A stretch of 64,000 nucleotides of DNA, taken from positions 64,001 through 128,000 of IMG/VR virus record IMGVR_UViG_3300020469_000008; one strand, given 5' to 3'. The DNA comes from a virus. Taxonomy: Duplodnaviria > Caudoviricetes. The position numbers and the translations under genes are program-made. Each line of letters begins with the position of its first letter. Within the stretch, counting starts at the first letter, position 1. Below, one piece after another: positions 36,515-42,247 of this stretch. The notes beneath the pieces are model-generated. The model did no database searches. It was not told the origin of the DNA and worked only from the letters and a program-made list of their open reading frames with translations.

Positions 36515-36928
36515 ATGTTAATTTCACCTTTTGGATTACTCCAAGAACAACTAAATAAAGATCCTTGGAAGATCTTTGTTTGTTGTATATTCTGCAACCT
36601 TACAAAAAGAAGAGCGTCAGAACCCTATTTTTGGAAGTTTCTACAGAAATGGCCAACGCCGCTAGCTGCTTCTGATCTAAATGAAAACGAGTTGAAAGAA
36701 TTAATTCAACCTTTAGGCTTAGTTGATAGGCGAACAAAGGCTTTAAAAAAGATGTCATCTGATTATTTAAAAAAAGACTGGGAAGACGATGCCACTAAAT
36801 TATATGGTATTGGTAAATATGGCTCAGATGCGTATAGAATATTCGTAAAAGAAGAATGGCGCGAAGTCATTCCTACTGATAGTGCACTTAAAAATTATAA
36901 ATCTTGGCTGGAGGAAATAAATGCCTGA
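36515..36928 (+). CDS. MBD4-like HhH DNA glycosylase (T:G/U:G mismatch type)
   Basis: SPFGLLQE....DPWK.....IF.N.T.........WKFL.K.P, LGL...R, L.GIGKYGSDAYRIF..EW..V.PTD..L..Y..WL aligns end to end with the eukaryotic MBD4 glycosylase domain as recalled. Confidence 0.85.
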   Translation: MLISPFGLLQEQLNKDPWKIFVCCIFCNLTKRRASEPYFWKFLQKWPTPLAASDLNENELKELIQPLGLVDRRTKALKKMSSDYLKKDWEDDATKLYGIGKYGSDAYRIFVKEEWREVIPTDSALKNYKSWLEEINA

Positions 36929-37727
36929 AGGACCCGAAGTAAAAACAACTGTTGATTTTTTAAAATCATATGAAGGAAATATTCTCACAAAACTAACAGT
37001 TTTGTCTGGAAGATACACCAAAAAGCCTATTGTCAACATTAACAACCCATCTTGGAGACTCCCTTTAAATTTAGAATCTGTAGACTGTAAAGGTAAGTTT
37101 ATATACTTTTGTTTGCAAGAAAATGTTTACTTTTTTAACACGTTAGGTATGACTGGTATGTGGTCAAATAGTGCATCGAATCATGCTCGAATCAAATTAG
37201 ATTTTGACGGTGAAGCAGCACCATTATATTATAATGATGTTAGAAATTTCGGTACTTTTAAAATCGCTTTGCTTAAAAAAGACTTAGACAAAAAGTTAAA
37301 ATCAATTGGACCTGACTTTCTTAAAGACGGCTGGGGCCCAAATTATTTTTATAGAATTCTTAAAAAGAATTCTCATAAAACAATAACAGAATTTTTAATG
37401 AATCAAAAAAATGTAAGTGGGATAGGCAACTACTTGAAAGCTGAATGTTTATATGAAGCAAAAATATCACCACATCGTTTTTGTGCCCATATAACATCAG
37501 AAGAGTCTGACAGGTTATTCCACGCTTGCAGGCGCATCATACAATTATCTTATAAAACGGGCGGCGCAACGATTCAGAACTATCGTAAGCCAAACGGAAA
37601 AAAAGGTTTGTACAGTCAGCGCTTTGCTGTGTATAATCAAAAAACTGCACCTTGTGGTAATAAAATTATTAAAGAAAAAACTCTTGATAAAAGGACCACA
37701 CATTGGGTGCCAGCCATTCAAAAGTAA
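36921..37727 (+). CDS. Fpg/Nei family DNA glycosylase/AP lyase (Nei-like, zincless finger)
   Basis: N-terminal MPEGPEV, KGKFIYF, LGMTG, Y.DVRNFG and the H2TH motif SGIGNYLKAE.LY. The C-terminal finger has only one Cys. Confidence 0.92.
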   Translation: MPEGPEVKTTVDFLKSYEGNILTKLTVLSGRYTKKPIVNINNPSWRLPLNLESVDCKGKFIYFCLQENVYFFNTLGMTGMWSNSASNHARIKLDFDGEAAPLYYNDVRNFGTFKIALLKKDLDKKLKSIGPDFLKDGWGPNYFYRILKKNSHKTITEFLMNQKNVSGIGNYLKAECLYEAKISPHRFCAHITSEESDRLFHACRRIIQLSYKTGGATIQNYRKPNGKKGLYSQRFAVYNQKTAPCGNKIIKEKTLDKRTTHWVPAIQK

Positions 37728-37736
37728 GGAGATATT

Positions 37737-37964
37737 ATGAATGAAAATGTAAAACTGAATGATAGCGTAATCGCACACTTTGTTAAACTTTTACAGTTAG
37801 GATTATTAACAGGTACAGATATTGTTGACCATTTTAGAATGGTTAGACTCACTGTAGAAGAGGATGAATTATTTCTCAACAAAGAATACGAAGAAAATCA
37901 AGAAGAAAACATCAACAAGATGCTCCAGCAAGTAACAGAGAATTCAGAAACACAGGAACAGTAA
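37737..37964 (+). CDS. Hypothetical protein
   Basis: AAGGAG SD, in operon. Confidence 0.75.
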   Translation: MNENVKLNDSVIAHFVKLLQLGLLTGTDIVDHFRMVRLTVEEDELFLNKEYEENQEENINKMLQQVTENSETQEQ

Positions 37965-38344
37965 TGAAAGAATGTAAACTTGAAGAAATGTTTAAATTAA
38001 GACTGTCTTTTATGAAAACTATGAAAGAGGTTATTCCAGGGTCATATCCAGATTTTCCTGTTGACATCTCAGAAAAAGCATCTCAGCAAGTTTGTCGTGA
38101 TTTAGCACTTAAAGGTGTTGAAGAAATGTTTGAAGCATTACAACATTTAAAAAACTGGAAACCACATCGTGTTACAAACATTGAGCATACACTTGATAGA
38201 GAAGAGTTCTTAGAAGAGATTGTCGATGCACTAAACTATTTCTTTGCGATGTTAATAGTAACTGGGTTTGATGAAAAAGAATTGTTTACTGCATATTTAA
38301 AAAAGGATGAGAAAATAAGACAACGTCTTACTAATGGTTACTGA
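37964..38344 (+). CDS. All-alpha NTP pyrophosphatase (dimeric dUTPase / T4 gp56 dCTPase / MazG-like)
   Basis: Acidic metal-binding helices VEEMFEAL....NWKPH and LEEIVDALNYF. Confidence 0.8.
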   Translation: MKECKLEEMFKLRLSFMKTMKEVIPGSYPDFPVDISEKASQQVCRDLALKGVEEMFEALQHLKNWKPHRVTNIEHTLDREEFLEEIVDALNYFFAMLIVTGFDEKELFTAYLKKDEKIRQRLTNGY

Positions 38345-38603
38345 GGTGGTAGTGGAATCAAACGTGACATTTAATGGTAAAAAAACAGATTTGTCCTTTG
38401 AGGAAATCAAAGTAAAGGTCGATCTGTATGGTTCTTTTTCAGGATCAATTAATGCAGGAAATACAATGTTTTTATTTAACAATGTAAAGTCTGAAGATTT
38501 TCAGTATTATGTAGATACCTTTAAAAAACATTTAAACCAACAAACCGAAGCTGAGGTGACCTTTGACATTCAAACAAATGCTATTGAAACAATTACAATA
38601 TAA
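38334..38603 (+). CDS. Hypothetical protein
   Basis: It fills the gap between the two pyrophosphatase-like genes. The exact start is uncertain. Confidence 0.55.
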   Translation: MVTEVVVESNVTFNGKKTDLSFEEIKVKVDLYGSFSGSINAGNTMFLFNNVKSEDFQYYVDTFKKHLNQQTEAEVTFDIQTNAIETITI

Positions 38604-39507
38604 CAAAAAAATTGTTGGCCCCGGTGATCAATTATCACAAGAATTAAAAGAGAAGATAACACAAGATAATGTACTATGTGCACACGCAGAACTAAGTGCG
38701 TTAGTAAATGCAACTAACTATAAAAACCACCATCAACATTCAGAACCCCTAGCTAATAGAAGAACTGTTTTGTATGAGACGGTTGATGTTATTAGATATA
38801 TGATGGCAACACTGAATACATGGGAGATAACATCCTCAGAGTTTGAAAGGGCTTTTGAGAAAAAGGATGTTTATCTTAATAAGCATTACGAGCTGCAGCA
38901 GAAAAAATGGACCGGACAACCTGTTGCAATTGTTGATATTGATGATGTTCTAGCTAATTTTCGAGTTGGTTTCTCTGATTGGCTGTATGAAAAATTTGGT
39001 GTAAGGGCAGATGTAGATTCTAAAGAATATTACTTTATCACAGCACTTTCAAAAATTAACCTTAACTCTGAATCTGTATTTAAGATGTTTCTTGACGACG
39101 AAGGATTTGCAAACTTAACTATAGACACTGACAATTTAGAAATTCTGTGGCAATTAAAGAATAGAGGATACTGGATTCATCTTCTAACAGCACGACCAGA
39201 AGAAGAACTCCAATGTTTGTATGACACGTATTTTTGGATCTGGCAACAAAATATTCCGTGTGATGCAATAAGCTTTTCACCTGAAAAGTTTAGATGGTGT
39301 GCTAAATCAAAATACTATGATGCAGGTGCAATTAAATTCGCAATTGATGATGCACCAAAACATGCTGAAGATTACGCAAAACACGGAATTAAATGTTTGG
39401 TACCTAATAAATCATATAACGAGCATTTAAGCCATCAAGATATCTTTCATTTTAATACTTATAGTCAAGCTATTTCCATTTTAAAGAGTGAAAATTTATT
39501 AAGGTGA
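38563..39507 (+). CDS. Fusion: degenerate all-alpha NTP-PPase domain + HAD 5'(3')-deoxyribonucleotidase
   Basis: N-terminal HAELSALV.ATNYKNH...LYETVDVIRY. C-terminal HAD motifs IVDIDDVL, LLTARP and FAIDD. TTG start with GAGGTG SD. Confidence 0.75.
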   Translation: MTFKQMLLKQLQYNKKIVGPGDQLSQELKEKITQDNVLCAHAELSALVNATNYKNHHQHSEPLANRRTVLYETVDVIRYMMATLNTWEITSSEFERAFEKKDVYLNKHYELQQKKWTGQPVAIVDIDDVLANFRVGFSDWLYEKFGVRADVDSKEYYFITALSKINLNSESVFKMFLDDEGFANLTIDTDNLEILWQLKNRGYWIHLLTARPEEELQCLYDTYFWIWQQNIPCDAISFSPEKFRWCAKSKYYDAGAIKFAIDDAPKHAEDYAKHGIKCLVPNKSYNEHLSHQDIFHFNTYSQAISILKSENLLR

Positions 39508-39510
39508 AGA

Positions 39511-40413
39511 ATGAGATTATCGAAAAGCCAGTTAAGTCTAATTATTGAAAACTATTTATTAGAAAGCGTTAATACAGAATCTATACGTTCTGAATTTGAA
39601 AAAGCAAGAGATCAACTTAAACAAGAATTTTTAAATTCAGATAAATTTGATAAAGTTGTAAGGGCTAGTGTTGGTAAAGGTTTAGACATGACGCATCTTT
39701 ATGTAGTTCCAAAAGATGATCCAATCAATAAGAATCCTGAGTTTTCTGCTTATGAAGGTTATGCACTTCACGTAAAATTTGTAAGGGGTGAAGAAAGACC
39801 TAAAAAAGAATATTTTGATACGGACATAATAAAAGACAAAGAATTGGAAAGCAAGTTTAGTTCAAAGCCTATTGTAAATCCAATTGTTGTTATATTTGAA
39901 AAAAATATAAAATCAAAAATTAGCCTTAAGCGCTTATTACTTCATGAGCTCGGTCACGTAAAAAACAATTTTTTAAAGTTTTATGCCGGAATAGATTTGA
40001 ATGTTAATGAGGTTCGAGCGGTACTTCGAAAAGATTTTCAAGGAAAGTCTATCGGTAAAATTGTAAATATACTTAGATCTGAAAAGCGCTTAGGTAGAAT
40101 TAACCCACCAGGTTTTTTAAGGCTAGTAGAACGACTTAAAAAATATTATGATGGCGTTTTTGCAGATCCAGCAGATGAATTATCAGTTGACGAGTTTGCT
40201 GTTAGAATATCGGCTTTGCAAAGAGACATTGTTGCGCAAGCTTCAGTTTCACCCCGTGCTGAAGAAGTTATGTCATTTACAAAAATGGAACGTAAATATG
40301 GGATAGACGCAGCCGGCTTAGCACTATTTTTGGAAAAAAATGTTACATTTGAAAAGATACAAGCAGTGGCACAAAACATTAAAAAAAGTAACACAAAAAG
40401 TGCAACAGGGTAA
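39511..40413 (+). CDS. HExxH metallopeptidase-like protein with basic N-terminal tag
   Basis: MRLSKSQLSLIIENYLLE, LLLHELGHVKN and a downstream DEF.VR. Confidence 0.6.
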   Translation: MRLSKSQLSLIIENYLLESVNTESIRSEFEKARDQLKQEFLNSDKFDKVVRASVGKGLDMTHLYVVPKDDPINKNPEFSAYEGYALHVKFVRGEERPKKEYFDTDIIKDKELESKFSSKPIVNPIVVIFEKNIKSKISLKRLLLHELGHVKNNFLKFYAGIDLNVNEVRAVLRKDFQGKSIGKIVNILRSEKRLGRINPPGFLRLVERLKKYYDGVFADPADELSVDEFAVRISALQRDIVAQASVSPRAEEVMSFTKMERKYGIDAAGLALFLEKNVTFEKIQAVAQNIKKSNTKSATG

Positions 40414-40428
40414 AATATTGTGTATAAT
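40400..40428 (+). promoter_or_regulatory. sigma70-type promoter GTGCAA-N17-TATAAT
   Basis: Exact 17-nt spacer upstream of the cglF-like gene. Confidence 0.7.
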
Positions 40429-40473
40429 AATAATGTGGATAACACAACAAACTAAAACTAATCAGGAGAAAAA

Positions 40474-40707
40474 ATGTTACTATTAATTTTAAATTTGTCA
40501 ATCGCTTCAGCACAAGAAACAGATAAAAATGTTCGCTACAACAAAAGAACAGAAATTGATTTTGAAGGCTTAGATATTACAGGTGAAATGATAAAGCCGA
40601 CAGGTGCTCTAGTTCAGTCTAGACAAACTGCTAAGTTTAATCCGTTGATCAAGATTAGAACAGACTTTAACCTAGAAATGGCACAGTCTATAAACAACGT
40701 TAAATAA
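40474..40707 (+). CDS. cglF: CglF/GltF-like (myxobacterial gliding motility) secreted protein
   Basis: Type I signal peptide (ASA|Q) followed by K.T.IDF....I.GE..KP.G.....R....F..LIK.R.DF..E...S, the recalled CglF consensus. Confidence 0.8.
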   Translation: MLLLILNLSIASAQETDKNVRYNKRTEIDFEGLDITGEMIKPTGALVQSRQTAKFNPLIKIRTDFNLEMAQSINNVK

Positions 40708-40730
40708 TTAGTTCTTTTCAAACAGCAAAT

Positions 40731-40757
40731 GGCAGCATAAAAAATGCTGCCTTTTTT
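40731..40757 (+). terminator. Intrinsic terminator after cglF
   Basis: GGCAGCAT-aaaaa-ATGCTGCC followed by T6. Confidence 0.9.
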
Positions 40758-40784
40758 GTATATTTTGTTAAATTTTGATATTAT
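40756..40784 (+). promoter_or_regulatory. sigma70-type promoter TTGTAT-N17-TATTAT
   Basis: Exact 17-nt spacer upstream of thyX. Confidence 0.6.
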
Positions 40785-40812
40785 AAAAAGCAATTAAAAA
40801 AAAGGAGATTCT

Positions 40813-41796
40813 ATGCCACAAAATCTAGATTTAAAACCTGTCGACTTACCAATGGAGTTGAAGTTTGGTCAAGAACCACACACAATTTTCCATAACAATC
40901 TTGAACATCTTAAGGTAGAACTTATCGATGCTCCTACACGCTCACAAGCATTAAATGTTGCTTGGCAATATGTAAAAGCAACTTGGGCTGATCATCATGA
41001 TGAGACAAATCCAAGCACAACTAGTCTTAAAGAATTGTCTGCAAATCTCGAGGATGTGCTCTGTTTCCGCGCGCTACCAACACCAATGGAATGCCTAGGG
41101 TTTACTTTTAAGTTGTCTGGCTTGTCATTTCAAGAGGTTACACACATTATTCGACATCGAGCGGGTTCTTTCGCAGCTCAATGTACTGGTGATCGCGATT
41201 TACGTGACGATCCTGCAGTTATTCCTGAAGCAGTACAAAACTCTCCTGAGTTTCTGGAAAGATATAAAAGAATTGTGCGTGATTCAAAGCAACTTTACGC
41301 AGACATGACAGATTCAAAAGATGTATCAATGATGGATGCAAGAATGATTCTTCCAAAGGCAATGACATCATTTTATCTGATGCGTCTTAATCTCAAAGAT
41401 TTGTTAGGTTTTATTGCACAACGTCAAGATATGCAAATCCAACCTGCAGCAGATAATTTACTTGCCGTTTACATGGCACGTGAAGTTTTAAAAGTTTTAC
41501 CTGAGGCATCAGCAAGGATTGATTTCAACAAACCAGATATGCACTACATTAAAACGTTCCGTGTACCTGATGGTAAAGGTGGAGAAACATCGCGAGGCAC
41601 AAATCTGTACTGGCCTGAACCTAAGAATGATAAATTTGATTATCATCCTAACGATACAATTTATCAGTCACGCCGAGAGGATATTAACGGTACACATAAT
41701 CCAGGTACAGAAACAGTTTTCACACAATTGTGGAATGAAACATTAACAGAAATCGATGCAATTAAAGCGTCATACAATCAATTTATGGGGAAATAA
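40813..41796 (+). CDS. thyX: Divergent ThyX-family (flavin-dependent thymidylate synthase-like) protein
   Basis: TPME..GFTF, RHRAGSFAAQC (RHR-x7-S motif with Cys), DARMILP and GFIAQRQD..IQ. Confidence 0.8.
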   Translation: MPQNLDLKPVDLPMELKFGQEPHTIFHNNLEHLKVELIDAPTRSQALNVAWQYVKATWADHHDETNPSTTSLKELSANLEDVLCFRALPTPMECLGFTFKLSGLSFQEVTHIIRHRAGSFAAQCTGDRDLRDDPAVIPEAVQNSPEFLERYKRIVRDSKQLYADMTDSKDVSMMDARMILPKAMTSFYLMRLNLKDLLGFIAQRQDMQIQPAADNLLAVYMAREVLKVLPEASARIDFNKPDMHYIKTFRVPDGKGGETSRGTNLYWPEPKNDKFDYHPNDTIYQSRREDINGTHNPGTETVFTQLWNETLTEIDAIKASYNQFMGK

Positions 41797-41797
41797 T

Positions 41798-42247
41798 ATG
41801 AGTTTAGGGAAGGTATACTTAGCAAGTGGGTGGTTCTCGCCGGAATGGTTGCAAGAAGTAGAAAACATTAAGTCTGTGTTTGAAAAGCATGGTGTTAATT
41901 ACTTCTCACCAAAAGATGAAAATCTTTGTGATAACGATGCAGCTGAATCGATGCAAGACCAGATTTTTGAAGGTAATATAAAACATTTACACGAAAGTGA
42001 TTGGTTACTTTGCAATACAAGAAACAAGGATATGGGAACGATTTTTGAGGCGGGTTACTTCAATTGTCTTGAAAAGCCTATCGTGTATTTCTGTGATGGT
42101 TTGCCTGCAGGTGCGCAATTTAATCTCATGCTAGCTGCAAGTGGTATTAAGGTTTGTCGATCATTAAATGAGTTTGACGACTATCTTGGTCGTTGTGTTG
42201 GTGGTGATGAATTAATTGTTGAAAGATATCAAGGTGAAATCGAGTAA
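41798..42247 (+). CDS. Nucleoside 2-deoxyribosyltransferase / NMP N-glycosidase family protein
   Basis: VYLASGWFS, YFSP and DMGTIFEAGY (catalytic Glu). Confidence 0.85.
   Translation: MSLGKVYLASGWFSPEWLQEVENIKSVFEKHGVNYFSPKDENLCDNDAAESMQDQIFEGNIKHLHESDWLLCNTRNKDMGTIFEAGYFNCLEKPIVYFCDGLPAGAQFNLMLAASGIKVCRSLNEFDDYLGRCVGGDELIVERYQGEIE

What the first reader, a model, noticed from the sequence alone, without database searches (positions are those of the whole stretch)
40400..40757. Phage-encoded CglF (gliding-motility) homologue in its own early transcription unit
Seen: sigma70-like promoter, AGGAG SD, a 77-aa secreted protein and a strong terminator, forming a self-contained cassette. The mature part matches the recalled Myxococcus CglF/GltF consensus (T.IDF...GE..KP.G...R...F..LIK.R..F..E..S). 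Established: CglF is an envelope component of the Agl-Glt gliding machinery, and cgl functions can be supplied by neighbouring cells. Inference: the host is a myxobacterium or other Glt-bearing predator. The phage may jam or boost motility, mask a Glt outer-membrane receptor (superinfection exclusion), or even export the protein to kin cells.
Basis: partly seen in the sequence, partly recalled or inferred. Interest (0 to 1): 0.85.

Follow-up and report, generated by a model that had tools for sequence, protein, structure and literature searches.

The report
Phage-borne gliding-machine linker protein GltF
A large uncultured marine phage carries its own well-conserved copy of GltF/CglF, the small periplasmic linker of the envelope-spanning gliding (Glt/Nfs-type) machine of myxobacteria. 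About ninety other viral contigs carry one too, which points to a Myxococcota host and to phage control of that machine.

Summary
Window 40474-40707 (+) is a 77-aa ORF with an AGGAG ribosome-binding site, a promoter-like site and a hairpin/T-run terminator.

It matches NCBIfam NF033764 (gliding_CglF) at E 1.9e-16 and 59.9 bits. That is under the 90-bit equivalog cut-off, but cellular GltFs inside glt clusters of aquatic Myxococcota MAGs score only 49-64 bits.

The window lies in a 202-kb IMG/VR virus record at 36% GC, with tail sheath, RNR, DnaE and ThyX genes.

- **Closest cell copies:** 61-64% identical, in gltC-D-E-F-G-H clusters of the lowest-GC (45-46%) Myxococcota MAGs.
- **Spread:** 92 IMG/VR contigs encode a relative. 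None of the 80 examined has another glt gene beside it; all 80 cellular loci do.
- **Only gltF:** pattern scans for the GltG C-terminal domain and for GltH found nothing viral.
- **An old, selected gene:** its composition matches the phage (GC3 0.28) and dN/dS is 0.07.
- **Residues kept:** nearly all residues conserved in cell copies are retained.
- **Promoter:** GTGYAAC-N16-TATAAT occurs 9 times on the coding strand and never on the other. It also precedes the phage sigma-factor gene and replication genes.

Function is inferred. An exported GltF copy probably docks on host GltG and GltC, either to sustain or to uncouple the machine. The complex prediction gave no verdict, and RNA data were uninformative.

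First-stage notes of this scan flagged the same gene on at least three other viral genomes.

The parts
40400..40406 (+). -35-like box GTGCAAC of a phage promoter class (GTGYAAC-N16-TATAAT)
   Evidence: Conserved in L004-L006, L019 and L022 upstream of gltF. Nine genome copies, all on the + strand, against 0.16 expected.
40423..40428 (+). -10 box TATAAT
   Evidence: Sequence read directly. Invariant in the alignment with L004-L006 although dS is about 1.6 in the gene.
40464..40468 (+). Shine-Dalgarno AGGAG, 5 nt before the ATG
   Evidence: AGGAGAAAAAATG is invariant among the relatives.
40474..40707 (+). gltF/cglF homologue, 77 aa plus stop
   Evidence: ORF. NF033764 E 1.9e-16. 87 clusters and 495 representatives of homologues. 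dN/dS 0.07 against L004.
40474..40512 (+). Putative short type I signal peptide (aa 1-13, hydrophobic, A-S-A then Q), without a basic n-region
   Evidence: Alignment with cellular GltFs, which carry longer signal peptides with K/R. All viral copies keep a hydrophobic N-terminus with an AxA-type site. Export itself is inferred.
40540..40596 (+). Conserved block aa 23-41 (Y22, T-E-I-D-F-E, G37, P42). It corresponds by my numbering offset to the GltF beta-strand modelled against the TonB-like C-terminal domain of GltG.
   Evidence: Invariant columns. The partner assignment comes from the AlphaFold model in PMC11761067; the offset mapping is my inference.
40636..40704 (+). Conserved block aa 55-77 (F-N-P-L-I, R62, S72) ending in a C-terminal helix. 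It corresponds to the GltF helix modelled in the GltC crevice.
   Evidence: Invariant columns. AF2 predicts helix 66-76 as the only element outside the signal peptide. PMC11761067.
40731..40758 (+). Intrinsic terminator: 8-bp GC-rich stem, 5-nt loop, T-run
   Evidence: A different hairpin plus T-run sits at the same position in L004-L006.

Best explanation
The ORF is a phage-resident, host-derived copy of GltF/CglF. GltF is the small, mostly disordered periplasmic linker of the Glt/Nfs-type envelope-spanning machine of Myxococcota.

It is made from its own promoter of the phage's non-structural (early/middle) class. It is exported by a short signal peptide. It keeps the two conserved segments that, in the published structural model of the Myxococcus machine, dock on the TonB-like C-terminal domain of GltG and in the crevice of GltC.

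Most likely it acts as a working GltF, as an auxiliary gene. On this reading the phage supplies the cheapest and probably most labile part of the bridge between the inner-membrane motor side and the outer-membrane platform. The host machine (gliding, adhesion or surface-polymer transport) then stays assembled, or is re-set under phage control, after host gene expression declines.

Shown: homology, the orphan position, conservation, selection, and the promoter and terminator anatomy. Inferred: export, binding to GltG and GltC, timing, and the direction of the effect on the host.
For: **Homology**
- NF033764 matches at E 1.9e-16.
- The protein is 54-64% identical to GltFs that lie between gltE and gltG in Myxococcota MAGs.
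- The neighbours of those genes match NCBIfam GltC, GltE, GltG and CglE/GltH.

**Conserved residues kept**
- 17 of the 29 columns that are at least 90% conserved in cellular GltFs are equally conserved in viral copies.
- Only 2 are changed in most viral copies. In the window's protein one of these is a conservative V-to-I change and the other keeps the cellular residue.

**Selection and age**
- dN/dS is 0.07 against a syntenic relative, with saturated dS.
- GC3 is 0.28, like other phage genes, against 0.43-0.86 in cellular gltF.
- A single origin of all viral copies is not rejected (p-AU 0.57).

**Spread among phages**
- 92 IMG/VR contigs carry a relative, in several genomic contexts.
- 0 of the 80 examined has glt neighbours, against 80 of 80 cellular loci.

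**Expression signals**
- The promoter class is shared with the phage sigma-factor gene, a FEN-type exonuclease and ATPases.
- The terminator is conserved in position.

**Literature**
- GltF is required for GltD clustering, localises to focal adhesions and has a signal peptide (PMC3169522).
- It is modelled as a bridge between GltC and GltG/GltD (PMC11761067).
Against: - No direct evidence of expression: RNA contigs miss the ORF.
- The signal peptide is unusually short (13 aa) and lacks a basic n-region, so export efficiency is uncertain.
- The complex prediction with the GltG C-terminal domain of the nearest MAG scored 0.30 against a mark of 0.32, which is no verdict.
- The host is unknown, and the phage GC (36%) is 9-10 points below even the lowest-GC candidate lineage.
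- Only gltF is carried. A phage that 'sustains' a machine might be expected to carry other parts in some lineages, yet scans for the GltG C-terminal domain and for GltH in viral contigs found none.
- A two-ended linker made outside operon stoichiometry could just as well uncouple the machine.
Confidence: 0.45

Rival explanations
1. Dominant-negative uncoupler. The same functional GltF copy is made in excess from a strong phage promoter and saturates GltG and GltC separately (a linker 'hook effect'). The outer-membrane platform is then disconnected from the motor. This arrests gliding or adhesin trafficking, or blocks an energised receptor step, and so gives superinfection exclusion or keeps the infected cell in place.
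For: - Only the bridging subunit is found in viruses: 92 contigs for GltF against none for the GltG C-terminal domain or GltH.
- The gene has a stand-alone promoter with a perfect -10, a strong SD and its own terminator, so it is freed from the stoichiometric gltD-H operon.
- GltF is modelled as a two-ended bridge (PMC11761067).
- Phages are known to block surface motility organelles for exclusion (own knowledge: Tip and Aqs1 against type IV pili).
Against: - Exclusion genes are usually lineage-specific and fast-evolving. Here conservation is cell-like across distant phages.
- There are no data on expression level.
- No evidence shows that the Glt platform is the receptor.
Confidence: 0.3
2. 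The protein has been re-purposed. It uses its strand-forming segment to bind another TonB/TolA-like C-terminal domain or a phage protein, and acts outside the Glt machine, for example in entry, lysis timing or envelope remodelling.
For: - It is an orphan in every viral locus.
- The signal peptide is shortened.
- The partner domain of GltG is TonB-like (TIGR01352 and NF033768 hits).
- GltF-like segments also occur inside 730-1345-aa proteins.
Against: Both conserved blocks are kept almost unchanged, including the C-terminal helix that the model assigns to GltC. A new partner would be expected to shift the conservation pattern.
Confidence: 0.12
3. The protein is passed to neighbouring kin cells by outer-membrane exchange, so that it acts on uninfected cells.
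For: cgl mutants, including cglF, can be stimulated by contact. CglE and CglF carry type I signal sequences and were suggested to be transferred with the outer membrane (PMC3325183).
Against: - GltF is described as periplasmic or inner-membrane associated (PMC4488436). Whether soluble periplasmic proteins transfer is unknown.
- No TraAB data exist for the candidate hosts.
- Nothing in the sequence bears on this idea.
Confidence: 0.05
4. It is a passenger gene or an assembly/binning artefact with no role for the phage.
For: None beyond the absence of expression data.
Against: - The composition is the phage's.
- The gene holds the same position in several independently assembled relatives.
- dN/dS is 0.07.
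- The phage DNA is present in runs of 13 studies, including viral-fraction metagenomes.
Confidence: 0.03

Closest known systems
GltF / CglF of Myxococcus xanthus (MXAN_4868; NCBIfam NF033764)
   Same: - A small exported protein.
- It matches model positions 23-87 of 88 at E 1.9e-16.
- It shares the conserved blocks (Y, T-E-I-D-F-E, G, P, F-N-P-L-I, R, S) and the C-terminal helix.
   Different: - It scores 59.9 bits, under the 90-bit equivalog cut-off.
- It is encoded by a phage as an orphan with its own promoter and terminator, not between gltE and gltG.
- Its signal peptide is 13 aa and has no basic residues.
GltF/NfsF-type genes in single-cluster glt/nfs loci of aquatic Myxococcota MAGs (L094, L095, L011, L002, L013)
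   Same: - 54-64% identity over the whole mature part.
- NF033764 scores in the same range (49-64 bits).
   Different: - The cellular genes sit in gltA/B-C-D-E-F-G-H order at 45-65% GC.
- The phage gene is at 32.5% GC with no glt neighbour.
- Whether these cellular clusters drive gliking-type motility, spore-coat-type polymer transport or something else is unknown.
Host-derived auxiliary genes of phages, e.g. cyanophage psbA (own knowledge)
   Same: A single, small, high-turnover-type component of a large host machine is carried by many phages and kept under strong purifying selection with host-like conserved residues.
   Different: - The target is an envelope motility/transport machine, not metabolism.
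- Turnover of GltF has not been measured.
Phage inhibitors of surface motility organelles used for superinfection exclusion, e.g. Tip and Aqs1 of Pseudomonas phages (own knowledge)
   Same: A small phage protein aimed at a host motility apparatus.
   Different: Those inhibitors are not homologues of a host subunit and act in the cytoplasm on PilB. This one is a homologue of a periplasmic subunit.

Membership tests
GltF/CglF (NCBIfam NF033764, equivalog) | HMM score at or above the curated cut-off (90 bits) | tested here: not met
   The protein scores 59.9 bits. Syntenic cellular GltFs of marine MAGs also score only 49-64 bits. The cut-off therefore delimits Myxococcus-like sequences, not the wider family.
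GltF/CglF (wider GltF/NfsF family) | Significant end-to-end similarity of the mature region, with the family's invariant residues | tested here: met
   E 1.9e-16. 16 invariant columns are shared in A1. 17 of 29 cell-conserved columns are equally conserved in viral copies and only 2 are changed.
GltF/CglF (wider GltF/NfsF family) | N-terminal type I signal peptide (periplasmic protein) | tested here: inconclusive
   The N-terminus is hydrophobic with an A-S-A site and aligns with cellular signal peptides. It is only 13 aa with no K/R, and no predictor or experiment was available.
GltF/CglF (wider GltF/NfsF family) | Gene lies between gltE and gltG in a glt/nfs cluster | tested here: not met
   No Glt homologue other than GltF was found in the 202-kb phage record. 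0 of 80 viral loci have glt neighbours, against 80 of 80 cellular loci.
GltF/CglF (wider GltF/NfsF family) | Binds the GltG TonB-like C-terminal domain and GltC (modelled for M. xanthus) | tested here: inconclusive
   Complex prediction with the L094 GltG C-terminal domain scored 0.30 against a mark of 0.32, which is no verdict. GltC was not tested.
GltF/CglF (wider GltF/NfsF family) | Required for gliking-type motility and localises to focal-adhesion clusters | not testable with these tools
   This needs genetics and microscopy. It is known for M. xanthus GltF (PMC3169522).
Host-derived phage auxiliary gene | Cellular origin, resident in bona fide phage genomes, phage-like composition, purifying selection, recurrent in several phage lineages | tested here: met
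   Phage hallmark genes and a virus record. GC3 0.28. dN/dS 0.07. 92 viral contigs in several contexts.
Phage superinfection-exclusion / motility-blocking proteins | Expression blocks a surface organelle or receptor and protects against secondary infection | not testable with these tools
   There is no cultured host or phage.

The most novel reading that the evidence does not exclude
A large, globally distributed set of aquatic phages, many of them jumbo phages, infects uncultured Myxococcota. They have all kept one host gene, gltF, because the GltF bridge is the control point of the Glt/Nfs envelope machine. By flooding the periplasm with this two-ended linker, the phage switches the machine off (or on) at will, to arrest gliding or adhesin traffic and to exclude competitors. 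This would be the first phage-encoded component of a bacterial focal-adhesion/gliding apparatus. It would also be a ready-made probe for how force is passed from GltG to GltC.
Probability: 0.3. Interest if true: 0.8.

Novelty: new variant of a known kind. Interest (0 to 1): 0.66.

Why it matters
- **Host marker.** It gives a marker for a whole group of uncultured marine and freshwater phages. Very few phages of Myxococcota are known, and as far as I know none from plankton.
- **A key part of the machine.** Evolution has singled out GltF, so far a poorly understood 80-90-aa linker, as the part of the Agl-Glt/Nfs machine worth hijacking. This makes the proposed GltG-GltF-GltC bridge directly testable with a natural variant.
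- **A new kind of auxiliary gene.** It extends phage auxiliary genes from metabolism to an envelope-spanning motility/transport machine.
- **No earlier report found.** The literature searches found no report of a phage-borne glt gene. That is a limited, full-text search of open papers.

Tried and rejected
- **Complex prediction** (phage GltF residues 15-77 with the GltG C-terminal domain of L094, own alignments): score 0.30 against a mark of 0.32. This is no verdict and counts neither for nor against binding.
- **AF2 monomer:** pLDDT 62, with only the signal-peptide helix and a C-terminal helix. This agrees with a disordered linker but gives no fold to search.
- **Pfam and PHROGs:** no family for the 77-aa protein.
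- **tblastn against 50,697 GenBank phage records:** no match. The gene is absent from those deposited phage records at this sensitivity.
- **RNA libraries X16, X17, X18 and X20:** small contigs lie on neighbouring genes and none on the ORF. Uninformative.
- **GTDB names:** The genome search does not give kinship for genomes reached through loci, so the candidate host order could not be named. 57 of 61 genomes sampled from that order carry a match. The 'Oligoflexia'-labelled MAG (L136) belongs to the same order sample.
- **Tree:** 58 columns leave it poorly resolved. I draw from it only that viral copies cluster (7 label changes against 47.9 when shuffled) and that one origin is not rejected.
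- **Contamination rejected:** the idea that the viral contigs are mis-sorted Myxococcota DNA fails. No glt neighbours were found, GC is about 40% against about 65%, and no GltG or GltH relatives occur in IMG/VR.
- **Not attempted:** a CRISPR-spacer or nucleotide search of the phage against candidate host MAGs, because of the low prior and the cost.

Full report
**What is there.** Window 40474-40707 (+) is a 77-aa ORF. It starts at the first start codon after an in-frame TAA at 40459-40461. AGGAG lies 5 nt upstream of the ATG.

Downstream, an 8-bp stem with 5 GC pairs (40731-40751) followed by a T-run forms an intrinsic-terminator-like hairpin (-16.2 kcal/mol, z -2.8).

Upstream there is a perfect TATAAT (40423-40428). 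Sixteen bases before it lies GTGCAAC (40400-40406).

**The replicon.** The window is bases 64001-128000 of a 202-kb linear IMG/VR virus record estimated to be 70% complete.
- It is 36% GC, and nearly all genes lie on one strand.
- It encodes a tail sheath, a class I RNR, a DnaE-type polymerase and ThyX. It is therefore a large, probably jumbo, myovirus-type phage.
- Its DNA recurs in runs of 13 marine studies, including viral-fraction metagenomes.

**Identity of the protein.** Pfam and PHROGs give nothing. NCBIfam NF033764 'adventurous gliding motility protein CglF' matches at E 1.9e-16 and 59.9 bits, over model positions 23-87 of 88. CglF is GltF (PMC4488436).

The score is under the 90-bit equivalog cut-off. 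I therefore scored cellular homologues that lie in glt clusters. They reach only 49-64 bits, so the cut-off separates Myxococcus-like sequences and does not exclude membership of the wider family.

A search of 5.8 billion proteins gave 87 clusters. An exhaustive HMMER scan of 1.84 billion representatives gave 495 hits at E below 0.001.

**Cellular relatives and their context.** The 82-91-aa homologues sit in Myxococcota MAGs. The gene order there is two outer-membrane beta-barrels, a TPR protein of about 630 aa, a TPR protein of about 1050 aa, a TPR lipoprotein of about 505 aa, the small gene, an FHA/TonB-like protein of about 650 aa, and a protein of about 240 aa.

NCBIfam names these neighbours GltC, GltE, GltG (with the AgmX/PglI C-terminal domain over its cut-off) and CglE, which is GltH, over its cut-off. 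This single-cluster order resembles nfsA-H as much as the split glt clusters of M. xanthus. I therefore call the host machine 'Glt/Nfs-type'.

All 80 genome loci recovered have glt neighbours. The closest to the phage protein are L094, L095 and L011, at 61-64% identity. They have the lowest GC of the set (45-46%, against a median of 65.5%).

In a sample of 61 genomes from the GTDB order of L094, 57 carry a match.

**Viral relatives.** A pattern-plus-tblastn scan of IMG/VR found 92 contigs with a relative, up to 316 kb long. Their median GC is 40%.
- None of the 80 examined has GltC, GltD, GltE, GltG or GltH within 6 kb.
- In the 202-kb record the only Glt-cluster protein with a homologue is GltF. 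The one further match is a weak, probably non-specific hit to the Ig/ASH-like protein encoded beside those clusters.
- The same kind of scan with the highly conserved GltG C-terminal domain, and with GltH, found no viral relative. Within the limits of pattern scans, phages carry gltF only.
- The genomic contexts differ. About 11 loci share the window's synteny (Fapy glycosylase, NT5C-like gene, gltF, ThyX, deoxyribosyltransferase). A larger group of 26-29 loci has gltF between an unannotated protein of about 800 aa and one of about 220 aa. Others sit next to NUDIX, trypsin-like and unknown genes.
- First-stage notes of this scan flagged the same gene on at least three other viral genomes.

**An old, selected resident.**
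- Gene GC is 0.325 and GC3 0.28, like neighbouring phage genes. Cellular gltF has GC3 0.43-0.86.
- Against the syntenic relative L004 (79% amino-acid identity), dS is about 1.6 and dN 0.11, so dN/dS is 0.07.
- 29 columns are at least 90% conserved among 74 cellular copies. Of these, 17 are equally conserved among 62 viral copies. Only two differ in most viral copies, and the window's protein keeps E38 and has a conservative I at position 35.
- On a 58-column tree, viral and cellular labels need 7 changes, against 47.9 after shuffling. An AU test does not reject a single viral clade (p 0.57). This is compatible with one or a few ancient captures. The tree cannot say more.

**Transcription signals.**
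- The -10 box, the GTGYAAC box and the SD are conserved between the window and L004-L006, although synonymous sites are saturated. They are also conserved in the more distant L019 and L022.
- In the whole phage record, [GA]TGYAAC-N15-17-TATAAT occurs 9 times on the coding strand and never on the other. A first-order Markov model expects 0.16 per strand, with a maximum of 2 in 200 simulations.
- Eight of the nine copies are intergenic and all nine lie 46-101 nt before a start codon.
- The other genes served are a MoxR-type ATPase, a VWA/DUF2201 protein, a 5'-3' exonuclease, a KaiC/RecA-like ATPase, the phage's own sigma-70-family factor and small ORFs. None is a structural gene.
- This supports 'own transcription unit' and makes an early or middle class plausible. 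Because the phage sigma gene itself depends on the motif, host RNA polymerase is the likelier reader. This last step is inference.
- The terminator is replaced by a different hairpin plus T-run at the same place in L004-L006.

**Mechanism.** Published work on M. xanthus shows the following.
- GltF has a signal peptide and is found in envelope fractions.
- GltF localises to focal-adhesion clusters in an AglQ-dependent way, and is needed for GltD clustering (PMC3169522).
- The 2025 structural model describes GltF as largely disordered. A beta-strand pairs with the TonB-like C-terminal domain of GltG. A C-terminal helix sits in a crevice of GltC. Together these bridge the outer-membrane platform to the GltD/GltG periplasmic complex (PMC11761067).

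That paper numbers a 147-aa form, whereas Luciano et al. list 89 aa. With an offset of 58, the strand (94-111) falls on the phage's T-E-I-D-F-E...G block and the helix (133-147) on its C-terminus. The offset is my inference. It is supported by AF2 placing the only non-signal helix of the phage protein at residues 66-76.

All viral copies keep a hydrophobic N-terminus with an AxA-type site. The window's lineage has a very short one (13 aa, no K/R).

I therefore read the protein as an exported, functional GltF that docks on host GltG and GltC. Two outcomes fit equally well in principle:
- It supplies a labile linker, so that the machine keeps working in the infected cell.
- It is made in excess and saturates both partners separately, which uncouples the machine.

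I favour the first slightly (0.45 against 0.30). The cell-like conservation across distant phages is the usual signature of auxiliary genes. Carriage of only the bridging subunit, under a stand-alone promoter, is what the second predicts.

My one complex prediction gave no verdict. RNA data were uninformative.

**Host.** The gene family is found, in the collections searched, only with glt clusters of Myxococcota-type genomes. Luciano et al. also report it in Bdellovibrio. The nearest cellular copies are from 45-46% GC marine MAGs. A marine Myxococcota host of that kind is therefore likely. It is not shown.

**Verdict.** The protein is a member of the wider GltF/NfsF family. It fails two membership features: the equivalog score and the cluster position. 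The second failure is the interesting point. No report of a phage-borne glt gene was found in four full-text searches.

Noticed in passing
G000:C1 31075, 32199, 104400 (= window 40400), 131514, 135140, 175781, 179909, 192104, 194731: A phage promoter class AAA-GTGYAAC-N16-TATAAT-A/T-rich-ACAAC. It has nine copies, all on the coding strand, each 46-101 nt before a start codon, against 0.16 expected. It serves non-structural genes, including the phage sigma factor.
   Followed up: partly
G000:C1:135212-135958 (L176), 7.2 kb beyond the window's end: A phage sigma-70-family factor with regions 1.2, 2 and 3 and only the first 18 positions of region 4 (Pfam). The gene sits behind the same promoter motif as gltF.
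   Followed up: partly
window 36921-42247: gltF is embedded in a nucleotide-metabolism block: Fapy-type glycosylase, NT5C-like nucleotidase, ThyX and nucleoside 2-deoxyribosyltransferase. The block is syntenic in L004-L006, L009, L019 and L022.
   Followed up: partly
window 39511-40413: The 300-aa protein directly upstream of gltF has an HExxH motif (LLHELGH) and no Pfam or PHROG family. No terminator lies between it and gltF, so read-through into gltF is possible.
   Followed up: no
L092:6235-9072 and homologues in 29 viral loci; L043:1884-3209 and homologues in 26 loci: In the largest group of gltF-carrying viral contigs, the gene is flanked by a conserved protein of about 800-945 aa and one of about 220 aa. 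The first has no Pfam or PHROG match. The second has only a weak polynucleotide-kinase-like PHROG hit at its N-terminus.
   Followed up: partly
P0134, P0187, P0199, P0216, P0218, P0219, P0228, P0236; G045, G051, G062, G039, G057 long frames: GltF-like segments of about 50-60 aa occur inside proteins of 730-1445 aa in Myxococcota genomes. The GltF strand/helix module therefore also exists as a domain of larger envelope proteins.
   Followed up: no
P0012 (81 aa, 1-kb ENA contig): Its C-terminal part of about 55 aa is nearly identical to the window's phage lineage. Its N-terminal part resembles the other viral group (the ...EEPK-I/V-VYKQ... type). This suggests recombination between phage gltF lineages.
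   Followed up: no
G001:C14:49490-49714, G002:C272:1079-1300, G005:C52:121991-122200: The candidate host-lineage MAGs carry a second, distant GltF paralogue (34-40% identical to the phage protein). This points to a second Glt/Nfs-type system. The phage copy groups with the first.
   Followed up: no
G000:C1:139495-141081: A 528-aa phage ORF shows weak similarity (E 5e-7) to the Ig/ASH-domain protein encoded just downstream of the cellular glt clusters (L002:13261-14505). It is probably a generic Ig-like domain.
   Followed up: no
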